DNA from: a virus
Taxonomy: Duplodnaviria; Heunggongvirae; Uroviricota; Caudoviricetes
Direction: 5' to 3' (one strand)
DNA: 45,248 nucleotides
IMG/VR virus record: IMGVR_UViG_2529293151_000014
Shown: in pieces, positions 33,001 through 36,000 of the stretch
Layout of the letters: every line of letters begins with the position of its first letter
Position numbering within the stretch: the stretch's first letter is position 1
Position numbers: made by a program

Positions 33001-36000
33001 AATGGCGCAGTACGCATCTGATGGTGCCATTACTGGCAAGTTTGTATGGCTGGACAGTTTTATTAATCAGGTATGGATTAATGCCAATCTGGTTAGTGCT
33101 TTTGCCAACCTGTTCACCAATAATCAGTCTTACCCGCTCAATGAGACAGGATACGGCGCAGTGTCTGCCGCTGTTATTGATGTTGCTGAACAGGCTCTCA
33201 ATTTCGGGGCTATTCAGCGTGGCGTGAAACTTGATAATGCGCAAACCAGAATTGTGAATAACACAGTTGGAAAAGATATCTCATCGACGCTGTATTCACA
33301 GGGCTGGTTCCTGTACATCCCGACACAGTCAGGCTCTGCACGCATTGAGCGCGACCTGAAAGGTGTCATTTTTTATTATGTCGATGGGCAACTTATTCAG
33401 TCCATCACAATGTCCTCAACCGCGATTTTATAAGGGAATAAATCATGCCTATCGATATTACCTCGGCAAACAGTAAGCTGCGAATCGTCGTGCCCGCTTA
33501 CTACCCTGGCGGTTTTGATGTTGACGACTACGCAGCTGATAACATGTTTGAAACTGGTGCGTTACAGAACAAAGAAGACATGATGTCAGCGGACGGTAAA
33601 TACCATGCTGGTTTTATCTTTAACCCGACAGAGTTCACCATCAACCTGATGCCCACATCCAATGCTGGCTCGCTGATTGATGACTGGTATGCAGCGGAGA
33701 GAACCGCAATTTCAGCGTTTCAGTGTAATGCGGTGCTTACAGTTCCGGCTCTCGGCGCGAAGTGGAATTTTGTGAACGGGGTTCTTTATACATGGACTCC
33801 AACTCCTCCGGGTCGGCGCGTACTGCAACCACGCCCGGCAGTATTTCACTTTGAGTCTGTAACACGGAGCACTATCTGATGGCACGTAAAGAAATCCCCT
33901 TTATCGTGGAAGATGATAATCGCTACAATGGGAAAGAGTTCATTATCACAGAGATGTCGGCATGGGATGCCGACGAACTGGCACAGGATTTATTCCGCTC
34001 CATGGGGGAATCGGGATTCTCTGGTATTCCTGCTGATGTGATTGCCATGGGGTGCGCTGGCCTTGCCACCCTTGGTCTGAATGTTATTTCTGCTGCATCG
34101 CCGGAAGTCGCCAGAAAACTTCGTGATCGCCTGATGTCAACTGTGCAAATTGTGATTACACACGAAGGCAGCAGACAGGTGAGAACCGTGAAGCCTGTCG
34201 ACTTTGAAGAGGTATCAACCATTCGTCAGGTAATGGATAAGGTATTTAAAGTCAATTTTGATTTTTTAACGATCGCCGGAGAGTGAAGTACCCGTTCATG
34301 GAGGAGGAGACTCTTCCGGCAAAACTCGTTAGCCCCGTAAACGTCACACCATCAATGAACGCCATTATCTGTTCAGGAAAAGCCACTTATACCGATTTGC
34401 AGGAACGGTTATCTGTTCGTGATATGTATAACCTTCTGGAAATTATCTCGGTGGAATCATTTAACAAGCGGGTCTGGAATAAACATCAGGAGCAGCGATG
34501 ATTATCAATGAGTTGGCCTACAAGGTCACAATTAAGGCCGATGAATTCCTGAATGGAAAACGGAAAGTAAAAGATGAAGTTAGTAAATTAAACAAAGATC
34601 TTTCCAGGGCTGAGAAGGAAAGGCTAAAGGAACTTGAAAAACAGCGGCAGGAAACGGAGAGGTTCGGTAAAACCGCTGTTTCAGCTTTCCGCAACGTGAC
34701 AACAGCAGCCGCTGGATTTTTGGGAATTGGCGCCGGGTTGTATGGAATTAAGCAACTTTTTACATCTACTGCCAACGAAATTGTGAGGGCCAGCCAACAG
34801 GCCAAGTTTTTCGACTCTGATGTTAATAAGATGTTTGGTGTTCAGCGGGGATTTCGCCAGGCTGGTCTTAACGGTGACTCGTTCATTTCATCTTCTGGGA
34901 ATGCCAGAATGGCTTTGGCAAATATTGCCGATCCGACTGTTATGGGAGGGCTTACTGGCGCTGCCCAAAATTTGCTGATTCTTGGAGCTCGTACCGGATT
35001 AGATATCAATAAGCTCGGCGACCCAAACAAGGCTCTTGCTGAGTTTTCTCGCTATGGCAAGACTCATTCTCAAGAAAACCTGATGCAGGTGATGGCTGCC
35101 GCAGGGTTCGATCCGACAGATGCCGCTAAAATAAAATCAGGGGAACTTAAGCAGCTTGTCGATTCAGAAACAAAGAAATCCCGTATTACAGCACAGCAGG
35201 TAAAAGAGCAGGAGAAGGTTGCTGCCACTCTTGGGCAACTTGATTCAGAGTTTTCCCGATTAAAGCAAAATTTAGCCATGGCATTCGCTCCAGACGTTAT
35301 TGACGGGATGAAGGCTTTTGGTTCCTGGATTGAGAAACATCATGGCGACATCATTGGCTTTTTCAATGACGCCGGGAATATGACTAAGCAATTCACAAAG
35401 GCAGTTGGTGGTGCGGAAGAGGCTCTGAAGCTATTGGCAGCAGCATATGTAGGAAGCAAACTTACAGGCGGCGCCCTTCCTCCATGGTTAGCAGGGTTAA
35501 TAGCATATGGTTTGTATCTCTACAATGACAGGGAAAACATTGAGGGTGCTGCTAAAGGATCGTTTGATTACTCTAAGCGTGAACTTGGAGATACCATGCG
35601 CAGCATGGGGTTTGATACCGATTTTGGGCGTAGAGGCGATGAGATTTATGGCAATAACATTCAGCCAGATATCCCTCTCCCTGACGGAGTAAAGCCAGTA
35701 AGCATGGATTCTCTCCTTGATGCCATTCGTGAGGTGGAATCGAGCGGTGGCAAAAAACTTTATAGCCCGAAAGGTGCTGTTGGTCCGTATCAGTTCATGA
35801 AGGATACTGCCATAGCGTACGGGTTAAAGGTCGGGGATGGGATTGATGAGCGTCTTGATGAAGTGAAATCTCGCGCTGCTGCTGAAAGGTTCATGAGGGA
35901 TTTGCTAAAGCACTATAAAGGCAATGTTAACCATGCGCTGATGGCTTACAACTGGGGGATGGGCAATGTAGACAAAAAGTTAAAATACATATCCAGTACC

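What the first reader, a model, noticed from the sequence alone, without database searches (positions are those of the whole stretch)
33879..34501. Canonical -1 programmed frameshift site (T_TTT_TTA) joining the two tail assembly chaperone ORFs
The ORF 34283..34501 is in the -1 frame relative to 33879..34286, has no convincing SD of its own, and is open back to 34268. Fifteen nucleotides before the upstream stop, the zero-frame codons are gaT TTT TTA, a textbook X_XXY_YYZ slippery heptamer. The gene pair lies between the tube and tape-measure genes, the conserved location of the G/GT frameshift in tailed phages.
Basis: partly seen in the sequence, partly recalled or inferred. Interest (0 to 1): 0.55.

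Follow-up and report, generated by a model that had tools for sequence, protein, structure and literature searches.

The report
Phage tail-chaperone -1 frameshift site
An E. coli prophage carries the standard "slip back one base" signal that lets ribosomes occasionally fuse two small tail-assembly genes into one longer protein; this trick is well known in tailed phages but is not annotated in any database record fetched for this lineage.

Summary
ORF1 (33879-34286, 135 aa) reads gaT TTT TTA in frame, so the heptamer T_TTT_TTA lies at 34262-34268. The -1 frame is closed by TGA at 34259-61 and is open from 34262 to 34501. Its stop overlaps the start codon of the tape-measure gene. The gene order is sheath, tube, ORF1, ORF2, tape measure.

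A heptamer alone is unremarkable: the window has 37 in-frame ones. The comparative evidence is what decides it.
- In 170 of 170 related loci the downstream domain lies in the -1 frame.
- Of 135 distinct junctions, 127 carry an in-register X_XXY_YYZ heptamer. The other 8 keep a T-run at the same site.
- The slip-site Phe codon is TTT in 133 of 133 sequences, against 27-61% at other conserved Phe columns.
- 67 of 135 have no start codon before the conserved core of the -1 product.
- The -1 peptide is conserved from the slip site onward.

A hairpin (34275-34320) begins 6 nt after the heptamer and has moderate support.

I conclude this is a lambda G/GT or P2 E/E+E'-type programmed -1 frameshift that makes a 207-aa fusion. 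It is a new member of a known kind and is unannotated in the GenBank and RefSeq records fetched. Interest is low to moderate. No fusion protein has been observed, and RNA-polymerase slippage on the T-run is not excluded.

The parts
33879..34286 (+). ORF1: tail assembly chaperone, G-like, 135 aa. This is the product of standard decoding.
   Evidence: phrog_1932 'tail assembly chaperone', E=3.6e-50. Pfam Phage_TAC_15 scores 20.2 bits, below its 22-bit cut-off. Its ATG overlaps the tube gene stop (TGATG).
34262..34268 (+). Slippery heptamer T_TTT_TTA in X_XXY_YYZ register of ORF1.
   Evidence: 127 of 135 distinct relatives carry an in-register heptamer in the overlap region. The Phe codon is TTT in 133 of 133.
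34259..34261 (+). TGA in the -1 frame. It closes that frame immediately upstream of the heptamer, so the shift must occur within 34262-34286.
34268..34501 (+). -1 frame extension, T-like domain, 77 codons plus stop. The predicted fusion is join(33879..34268, 34268..34501) and encodes 207 aa.
   Evidence: phrog_3976 E=1e-15. The product is conserved from the slip site onward (FF..RR...N...ATLHELQ...LLEI..V...N). The stop overlaps the tape-measure ATG (ATGA).
34275..34320 (+). Candidate stimulatory hairpin. The 5' arm is 34275-34284 and the 3' arm is 34310-34320: 10 bp, with T34314 bulged, a 25-nt loop, and a 6-nt spacer after the heptamer.
   Evidence: It is in the MFE structure. The 55 nt downstream fold at -18.8 kcal/mol, against a locus mean of -10.3±3.4 (0.5th percentile), with z=-1.9 against dinucleotide shuffles. 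Partial covariation was seen. A 72-nt segment gave z=-0.19, and RNAalifold found no consensus structure.
33445..33879 (+). Tail tube gene (upstream neighbour).
   Evidence: Pfam E217_Gp32 E=5.5e-17; phrog_1964.
34498..36312 (+). Tape-measure or lytic tail protein with a C-terminal SLT domain (downstream neighbour).
   Evidence: phrog_2013 E=2e-191; Pfam SLT E=2.3e-20.

Best explanation
[quoted passage not shown] Most ribosomes translate ORF1 to its TGA and make the 135-aa chaperone. With tRNA-Phe on UUU (P site) and tRNA-Leu on UUA (A site) at 34263-34268, a minority slip back one base to UUU UUU, then read AAC GAU CGC and onward. That yields a 207-aa fusion (...NFDFL|NDRRRVKYPF...) which ends where the tape-measure gene starts. 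By analogy with lambda G/GT and P2 E/E+E', the shared N-terminal part coats the tape-measure protein and the -1-encoded C-terminal domain recruits the tube protein. The frameshift efficiency would fix the ratio of the two forms. A hairpin that begins 6 nt after the heptamer probably raises the efficiency. What is shown here: the sequence anatomy, the conservation of the frame relationship, the slip site and the -1 peptide, and the lack of start signals. What is inferred: that the fusion is actually made, its ratio to the short form, the roles of the domains, and the hairpin's stimulatory role.
For: -
- In 170 of 170 related loci from IMG/VR, phage and E. coli records, the T domain lies in the -1 frame relative to the chaperone. 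Chaperone identity in the nine-sequence alignment ranges down to about 28%.
- Of 135 distinct junctions, 127 have an in-register X_XXY_YYZ heptamer (TTTTTTA, TTTTTTT, TTTTTTC, TTTTTTG or GGGTTTT). The other 8 keep a T-run at the same site.
- The Phe codon at the slip column is TTT in 133 of 133, against 27-61% TTT at five other conserved Phe columns. The preceding codon ends in T in 132 of 135.
- 67 of 135 have no ATG, GTG or TTG between the slip site and the conserved core of the -1 product. Only 5 have an ATG with a Shine-Dalgarno sequence.
- In the six codons after the slip site, the -1 peptide is more conserved (pairwise identity 0.446; Arg at 87, 77 and 66%) than the zero-frame peptide (0.328).
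- The fusion aligns contiguously across the junction to phrog_18181 (residues 76-196) and phrog_4774 (residues 112-203).
- One metagenomic relative encodes the whole fusion in frame (P0028, 210 aa, 100% coverage).
- 28 of 135 junctions have T-runs of 5 or fewer, and 20 of these have G_GGT_TTT. That fits tandem tRNA slippage better than polymerase slippage.
- Downstream structure is enriched across the clade: mean z is -1.29 and 38% fall below -2, against mean z of +0.07 to -0.46 and 4-11% below -2 at five of the six control offsets; the sixth control, at +120, is itself structured (mean z -0.90, 17% below -2).
- Precedent: the lambda G/GT frameshift is widely conserved (PMC5009743), and P2 shifts at TTTTTTG (PMC3091744).
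Against: - There are no protein or ribosome-profiling data, so the fusion is inferred.
- U6A is not among the most efficient E. coli motifs (PMC4066793).
- The hairpin evidence is mixed. z was -0.19 for a 72-nt segment. RNAalifold found no consensus. The slid control gave the same covariation score. Edno5-type relatives lack this hairpin.
- In this window GTG 34283 overlaps the ORF1 stop (GTGA), so some independent synthesis of ORF2 by termination-reinitiation is possible.
- Chaperone homology rests on a PHROG annotation and on weak matches to predicted viral structures. Pfam is below threshold and there is no PDB match.
Confidence: 0.8

Rival explanations
1. Transcriptional slippage. RNA polymerase stutters on the T6 run (34262-34267) and adds one U to a fraction of the mRNAs. 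Those mRNAs encode the fusion by standard decoding, with a ...NFDFFNDR... junction.
For: - The conserved element is always a T-run.
- 31 of 135 relatives have runs of 7-9 T.
- A metagenomic allele with one extra T (T9) encodes the fusion in frame.
- A mechanism other than ribosomal frameshifting has been proposed for T4-like chaperones (Vladimirov et al. 2022, cited in PMC12846349). I know this paper only from the title as cited and did not read it.
- U7 and A7 runs are depleted in E. coli genes, possibly because of polymerase slippage (PMC4066793).
Against: - The window has only 6 T. From general knowledge, bacterial polymerase slippage usually needs runs of about 7-9 or more.
- 28 of 135 relatives have 5 or fewer T, and 20 of those carry the canonical tandem-slip heptamer G_GGT_TTT instead.
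- The run keeps a fixed register relative to the zero frame.
- Enriched downstream RNA structure is what a ribosomal stimulator predicts.
Confidence: 0.08
2. ORF2 is an independent small protein. It would be translated from GTG 34283 by termination-reinitiation at the overlapping GTGA, or from ATG 34298 as NCBI's PGAP annotation pipeline calls it. On this view the heptamer is incidental.
For: - GTGA stop/start overlap is a common coupling arrangement, and it is present here.
- RefSeq annotates the ORF from the ATG as a separate hypothetical protein.
Against: - Only 21 of 135 relatives have GTG or TTG overlapping the stop. In the other 114 that codon is GTA, ATA, CTG, CTA or TTA.
- 67 of 135 have no start codon at all before the conserved core.
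- The Shine-Dalgarno spacing here is 1 nt or 16 nt.
- Conservation of the -1 peptide begins at the slip site, upstream of both candidate starts.
- The synonymous constraint on the heptamer would go unexplained.
Confidence: 0.07
3. Chance. The heptamer merely encodes a conserved Asp-Phe-Leu motif and the -1 ORF is not expressed.
For: The window holds 37 in-frame heptamers. D/G-F-L is a conserved protein motif.
Against: - TTT is used in 133 of 133 at this Phe, against 27-61% at other conserved Phe columns.
- The -1 ORF is conserved as protein in 170 of 170 loci and always ends at the tape-measure gene.
- It matches phrog_3976.
Confidence: 0.02

Closest known systems
Bacteriophage P2 E / E+E' (-1 frameshift at TTTTTTG in the FETUD tail operon)
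   Same: The host is E. coli and the tail is contractile. The gene order is the same: sheath (FI), tube (FII), chaperone pair, tape measure (T). The heptamer is T6-N, and the -1 extension ends at the tape-measure gene (PMC3091744, PMC5009743).
   Different: No sequence similarity was detected: tblastn of ORF1 against the phage collection found only the Gofduovirus, Popoffvirus, Obolenskvirus-like and similar clade. The sizes differ (E is 91 aa and E+E' 142 aa, against 135 and 207 aa here). P2 has no downstream hairpin (PMC3091744), whereas this locus has a candidate one. The last base of the heptamer is A rather than G.
Bacteriophage lambda G / GT
   Same: [quoted passage not shown] The pair lies between the major tail gene and the tape-measure gene. 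The arrangement is conserved despite low sequence similarity (PMC5009743).
   Different: Lambda is a siphovirus. No homology was detected here. The 30:1 ratio and the binding partners are known for lambda and only inferred here.
TAC-N/TAC-NC frameshift proposed for Pakpunavirus and other Vandenendeviridae, and for Andersonviridae (conserved GTTTTT)
   Same: The inference is of the same kind and rests on the same type of evidence: an uninterrupted -1 frame across divergent alleles, a conserved poly-T motif at the 3' end of TAC-N, and a downstream ORF routinely annotated as hypothetical (PMC12846349).
   Different: The phage families differ, those phages are lytic, and the motif is shorter. I did not test whether the proteins are homologous.
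HIV-1 gag-pol U_UUU_UUA
   Same: The heptamer is identical and there is a downstream stem-loop (from my own knowledge).
   Different: The translation system is eukaryotic and the biology is unrelated. In E. coli, U6A is not among the most efficient motifs (PMC4066793).

Membership tests
G/GT-type tail assembly chaperone -1 PRF (lambda G/GT, P2 E/E+E'; Xu et al. 2004) | The gene pair lies between the major tail (tube) gene and the tape-measure gene. | tested here: met
   Tube is 33445-33879, ORF1 33879-34286, ORF2 runs to 34501, and tape measure is 34498-36312. The annotated phage relatives examined keep the same order apart from inserted genes.
G/GT-type tail assembly chaperone -1 PRF (lambda G/GT, P2 E/E+E'; Xu et al. 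2004) | The downstream ORF overlaps the 3' end of the upstream ORF in the -1 frame and lacks its own conserved initiation signals. | tested here: met
   The -1 relationship holds in the window and in 170 of 170 loci. 67 of 135 have no start codon before the conserved core and only 5 have ATG plus a Shine-Dalgarno sequence. The GTGA overlap is not conserved.
G/GT-type tail assembly chaperone -1 PRF (lambda G/GT, P2 E/E+E'; Xu et al. 2004) | A slippery sequence in X_XXY_YYZ register lies inside the overlap and is conserved among relatives. | tested here: met
   T_TTT_TTA lies at 34262-34268. 127 of 135 distinct junctions are canonical and 8 are near-canonical T-runs. The Phe codon is TTT in 133 of 133, against 27-61% elsewhere.
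G/GT-type tail assembly chaperone -1 PRF (lambda G/GT, P2 E/E+E'; Xu et al. 2004) | The upstream ORF is a tail assembly chaperone by homology or fold. | tested here: inconclusive
   phrog_1932 'tail assembly chaperone' gives E=3.6e-50. Pfam Phage_TAC_15 scores 20.2 bits, below the 22-bit cut-off, and only 3 of 9 relatives match. A profile search of PDB sequences found nothing. The AF2 model of relative P0028 has an N-domain pLDDT of 70-85. It has no PDB fold match. It does match BFVD predicted structures labelled tail assembly chaperone, at E of 5e-5 to 5e-3 and TM of 0.4-0.57. These labels are annotations, not experiments.
G/GT-type tail assembly chaperone -1 PRF (lambda G/GT, P2 E/E+E'; Xu et al. 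2004) | Both the short and the fused protein are made from one start, at a fixed low ratio, and both are needed for tail assembly. | not testable with these tools
   This needs protein detection and genetics.
G/GT-type tail assembly chaperone -1 PRF (lambda G/GT, P2 E/E+E'; Xu et al. 2004) | A downstream stimulatory RNA structure. This is not a defining feature and is reported as rare in phage G/GT sites. | tested here: inconclusive
   The hairpin at 34275-34320 is supported by a local percentile of 0.5% and z=-1.9, and by a clade mean z of -1.29 against control offsets of +0.07 to -0.90. Against it, z was -0.19 on a 72-nt segment, RNAalifold found no consensus, and covariation equalled the slid control.
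Transcriptional (RNA polymerase) slippage recoding | A long homopolymer run, typically 7-9 nt or more in bacteria, with no need for a fixed codon register. | tested here: not met
   The window has T6. 28 of 135 relatives have 5 or fewer T, and 20 of those have G_GGT_TTT. The register is fixed. The length threshold comes from general knowledge, so the mechanism is disfavoured but not excluded.
Translational coupling by overlapping stop/start (ATGA/GTGA) | A start codon overlaps the upstream stop and is conserved among relatives. | tested here: not met
   GTGA is present in the window, but only 21 of 135 relatives have GTG or TTG at that position.

The most novel reading that the evidence does not exclude
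In this clade the long chaperone form may be made wholly or partly by RNA-polymerase slippage on the T-run, adding one U, rather than by tRNA slippage. Alleles range from T4 to T9, and one T9 allele already encodes the fusion in frame. The lineage might therefore be shifting between ribosomal recoding, transcriptional recoding and hard-wired fusion. It would be a natural system for comparing the three routes to one fixed protein ratio.
Probability: 0.1. Interest if true: 0.4.

Novelty: new member of a known kind. Interest (0 to 1): 0.25.

Why it matters
The main value is for annotation. In every record fetched for this lineage the two ORFs are listed as separate hypothetical proteins, or as a chaperone plus a hypothetical protein (or are not annotated at all), with arbitrary and sometimes truncated starts for the second ORF. 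This covers an E. coli RefSeq prophage and the fetched phage records of Gofduovirus, Popoffvirus, phiAC-1, Burkholderia phiE131/PE067, Pseudomonas Amjad_SA, Klebsiella ST15-VIM1phi2.1 and Acetobacter phiAO1. In the protein search every named hit among the 120 listed was also called 'hypothetical protein'. The correct product is a joined coding sequence, join(33879..34268, 34268..34501). The comparative set (135 distinct junctions, several heptamer types, variable downstream structure) extends the Xu et al. 2004 paradigm to a large and widespread group of myovirus-type prophages whose tail proteins match Pfam families named after Pseudomonas phage E217. It could also serve as test data for frameshift predictors. 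It does not change how these systems are understood to work.

Tried and rejected
- Megablast of 33400-36400 against the phage collection found nothing. Relatives were reached only by protein search.
- The search for related loci with the divergent 9-sequence alignment failed because no stretch was conserved enough. Narrower alignments worked.
- My first slip-site locator used a regular expression on TTT codons and was circular. I replaced it with a protein-alignment column test.
- Rfam found no family in 34150-34520 even at E up to 10, only noise hits.
- RNAalifold on 37 enterobacterial-type sequences gave no consensus structure.
- The strand folding shuffle test on 34269-34340 gave z=-0.19. 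The structure signal appears only with a tighter 55-nt segment and with local or clade-level controls, so I rate the hairpin as suggestive only.
- I looked by eye for a pseudoknot between the 25-nt loop and downstream sequence and found no convincing complementarity. This was not computed.
- The structure route gave little. The window fusion could not be submitted. The AF2 model of the natural in-frame relative P0028 was mediocre (pLDDT 62, T domain below 50). Foldseek against PDB gave nothing significant, and the profile search of PDB sequences gave nothing.
- I considered a -2 shift, which is known for U6A depending on spacer length (PMC3458567, title and abstract only). That frame is open for only 20 codons here (34270-34332) and I saw no conserved protein in it across the 12 loci.
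Full report
**1. The observation**

I read the sequence directly. ORF1 runs 33879-34286 and encodes 135 aa. It ends ...AAT TTT GAT TTT TTA ACG ATC GCC GGA GAG TGA.

The -1 frame carries a TGA at 34259-61. It is open from 34262 to its TGA at 34499-34501, and that stop overlaps the ATG (34498) of the next gene. The real entry window into the -1 frame is the 25 nt from 34262 to 34286, and the heptamer sits at its 5' edge.

A -1 slip after decoding TTA gives a 207-aa product, ...KVNFDFL|NDRRRVKYPFMEEETLPAKLV...QEQR.

Neither candidate start of ORF2 has a well-spaced Shine-Dalgarno sequence. 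GGAG (34278-81) lies 1 nt before GTG 34283 and 16 nt before ATG 34298. GTG 34283 does overlap the ORF1 stop as GTGA. That creates a rival reading, termination-reinitiation, which I tested in section 4.

**2. Context**

The surrounding genes are:
- 31943-33433: tail sheath (DUF3383, phrog_205).
- 33445-33879: tail tube (Pfam E217_Gp32).
- ORF1: phrog_1932 "tail assembly chaperone", E=3.6e-50. Pfam Phage_TAC_15 scores 20.2 bits, just under its 22-bit cut-off.
- ORF2: phrog_3976, function unknown, E=1e-15.
- 34498-36312: a 604-aa tape-measure or lytic tail protein with a C-terminal SLT domain.

The window is IMG/VR contig UViG_2534681700_000005, because locus L021 is the window itself. It is a prophage found in 20 of 5,426 complete E. 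coli genomes.

RefSeq annotates the two ORFs as separate hypothetical proteins, with ORF2 starting at the ATG. None of the fetched relatives has a joined coding sequence. These are Edwardsiella phages Edno5 and GF-2 (Gofduovirus), Vibrio IKEMa6-1, Burkholderia phiE131 and PE067, Pseudomonas Amjad_SA, Aeromonas vB_AsaM-56 (Popoffvirus), Klebsiella ST15-VIM1phi2.1, Acetobacter phiAO1 and Acinetobacter phiAC-1.

**3. Is it more than chance?**

An in-frame heptamer alone is not remarkable. A greedy set of 64 ORFs in the window (about 13,400 codons) holds 37 of them. That gives roughly a 2% chance of one falling in any 8-codon overlap. This heptamer has the longest -1 extension of the 37: 77 codons, reaching 215 nt past the zero-frame stop.

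**4. The comparative test, which decides the case**

I collected 160 IMG/VR loci, the 10 phage loci and one E. coli locus. I located the chaperone and the -1 product with HMMs built from alignments A1 and A2.

- **Frame relationship.** In 170 of 170 loci that hold both domains, the downstream domain is in the -1 frame relative to the chaperone.
- **Slip site.** The loci collapse to 135 distinct junction sequences. Of these, 127 carry an in-register X_XXY_YYZ heptamer inside the overlap. TTTTTTA is by far the commonest, followed by GGGTTTT, TTTTTTT, TTTTTTC and TTTTTTG.
- **The eight exceptions.** All keep a T-run at the homologous site: GAT TTT TCN in six, GAA TTT TTA in one and GCT TTT GTA in one.
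- **Codon control.** I used a non-circular test based on a protein alignment of the 135 chaperones. The invariant Phe at the slip column is encoded by TTT in 133 of 133 sequences; two further rows are displaced by one column. At five other conserved Phe columns TTT is used in only 27-61%. The preceding codon ends in T in 132 of 135.
- **Conservation of the -1 product.** The -1 products align from the slip site onward (FF..RR....N....ATLHELQ...LLEI..V...N).
- **Start codons.** In 67 of 135 there is no ATG, GTG or TTG between the slip site and the conserved core. Only 5 have an ATG with a Shine-Dalgarno sequence.
- **Which frame is under selection.** In the six codons after the slip site, the -1 peptide is better conserved than the zero-frame peptide. 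Pairwise identity is 0.446, with Arg at 87, 77 and 66% of sequences at three consecutive positions, against 0.328 for the zero frame.
- **The GTGA overlap.** A start codon overlapping the zero-frame stop, as in this window, is present in only 21 of 135. Elsewhere the same codon is GTA, ATA, CTG, CTA or TTA.

Independent initiation or coupling therefore cannot be the conserved route of expression.

**5. Evidence for the fusion as a protein**

The 207-aa fusion aligns contiguously across the junction (residue 130/131) to two PHROG families of 170-177 aa: phrog_18181 over residues 76-196 and phrog_4774 over residues 112-203. Both E-values are better than for ORF2 alone.

I searched 5.8 billion proteins with the fusion. 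The listed hits were chaperone-only proteins, all called "hypothetical protein" where they carried a name, with one exception. P0028 is 210 aa, 51% identical, and covers 100% of the query. It lies between a tube gene and an SLT tape-measure gene on a 26.7-kb metagenomic scaffold. At the junction that scaffold reads AGT TTT TTT TTC AAT AGG CGA CGA (T9). That is one T more than a two-ORF layout would have. It is either a natural hard-wired fusion or a homopolymer assembly error. Either way, it shows that one extra base at the T-run restores exactly the predicted protein.

**6. Downstream structure**

The MFE fold places a 10-bp hairpin with one bulged T (34275-34284 paired with 34310-34320, 25-nt loop) 6 nt after the heptamer. 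The evidence for it is mixed.

In favour:
- The 55 nt starting 4 nt after the heptamer fold at -18.8 kcal/mol. Other 55-nt windows of the locus average -10.3±3.4, which puts this one at the 0.5th percentile.
- Its z-score against dinucleotide shuffles is -1.9.
- Across the 135 junctions the same segment has a mean z of -1.29, and 38% fall below -2. Five of the six control offsets give a mean z between +0.07 and -0.46, with 4-11% below -2. The sixth, at +120, is itself structured (mean z -0.90, 17% below -2).
- In 37 enterobacterial-type sequences, 75% of cells pair against 68% in shuffles (0 of 500 shuffles reach the observed value). Both-side changes occur at three pairs, for example A-U, G-C and C-G at alignment columns 21 and 51.

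Against:
- The 72-nt segment gave z=-0.19.
- RNAalifold found no consensus structure.
- The one-column slid control has the same covariation score.
- Edno5-type relatives lack this hairpin.

I rate a stimulatory structure as likely for the clade and plausible but unproven for this window. Published work notes that such structures are rare at phage G/GT sites and absent in P2 (PMC3091744).

**7. Mechanism and rivals**

The best explanation is tandem -1 tRNA slippage on U_UUU_UUA, giving a minor G-T-type fusion (confidence about 0.8). In E. coli the most efficient U-type motifs end in U or C, and U6A is not listed among them (PMC4066793). That fits the low ratio these systems need: about 30:1 in lambda, and 2-3-fold more frameshifting in P2 (PMC5009743).

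- **RNA-polymerase slippage** that adds one U would give almost the same protein, with an F-F-N junction instead of F-L-N. It is disfavoured because the window has only T6, and because 28 of 135 relatives have 5 or fewer T while 20 of those carry G_GGT_TTT. It is not excluded (about 0.08).
- **Independent translation of ORF2** is rated about 0.07, for the reasons in section 4.
- **Chance** is rated about 0.02.

**8. Comparison with what is known**

This works like lambda G/GT and, most closely, like P2 E/E+E'. P2 infects the same host, has a contractile tail, shows the same gene order (sheath, tube, pair, tape measure) and uses a T6-N heptamer (PMC3091744).

No sequence homology to those proteins was detected, and the chaperone fold could not be confirmed against any solved structure. 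The N-terminal domain of an AF2 model of relative P0028 matched only predicted viral proteins labelled tail assembly chaperone, and weakly.

A 2025 paper drew the same kind of inference for Pakpunavirus and Andersonviridae from a conserved GTTTTT motif (PMC12846349). My two literature searches on this question, and the one retrieved paper on these phages that I searched for the term, turned up no report of the frameshift for the Gofduovirus, Popoffvirus or Obolenskvirus-like clade, or for this E. coli prophage.

**9. Verdict**

The finding is correct and well supported by comparative evidence. It is a new, unannotated member of a well-known kind. Interest is 0.25.

Noticed in passing
window 25012-25014 (portal gene 24565-26100): The portal gene (Pfam Phage_portal_3, annotated DUF1073 in RefSeq) is interrupted by an in-frame amber codon, TAG. 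The near-identical prophage of E. coli FDAARGOS_1288 has GAG (Glu) there and an intact gene. This copy of the prophage may be defective, may depend on suppression, or may carry a sequencing error.
   Followed up: partly
window 36381-37915: A module resembling the P22 immI region (a comparison from memory, not tested) sits inside the tail operon between the tape-measure and baseplate genes. It comprises an Arc-family repressor (36381-36701, minus strand), a small ORF (36804-36965) and a Bro-N/P22_AR_C antirepressor (37037-37915).
   Followed up: no
L172 2890-2912 (ENA scaffold CHEN20-1_SAMN11273838_METAG-scaffold_1438): A relative encodes the whole chaperone fusion as one in-frame 210-aa ORF. 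It has a T9 run at the slip site, one T more than the two-ORF layout would have. It is either a natural hard-wired fusion or a homopolymer assembly error.
   Followed up: partly
L009 2950-2960 (Klebsiella phage ST15-VIM1phi2.1, MK448228): This relative has only GCT TTT GTA (T4) at the homologous site and no canonical heptamer, yet it keeps the conserved -1 ORF. Its tape-measure gene is also annotated as two ORFs, and a Rha-family gene sits between the tube and chaperone genes.
   Followed up: partly
L005 3114-3605 (Burkholderia phage phiE131) versus L007 (PE067): An HNH homing endonuclease gene lies between the -1 ORF and the tape-measure gene in phiE131. It is absent from the otherwise near-identical PE067.
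   Followed up: no
window 26076 and 8009: Two other in-frame heptamers have long -1 extensions. A_AAC_CCT lies 22 nt before the stop of the portal ORF, and the -1 frame there is the overlapping Mu F-like gene (26021-26839), which has its own ATG. T_TTC_CCA lies in ORF 7857-8108 and has a 72-codon extension. Both are probably ordinary gene overlaps. Neither was examined.
   Followed up: no
related loci, about 120-175 nt downstream of the slip site: A second segment inside the -1 ORF also folds better than shuffles across the clade (mean z -0.9, against about 0 at other control offsets). This is unexplained.
   Followed up: no
window 33445-33879: RefSeq names the tail tube protein 'phage tail fiber protein'. 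The label appears to come from the description of Pfam E217_Gp32. Its position, size and PHROG match point to a tube protein.
   Followed up: no
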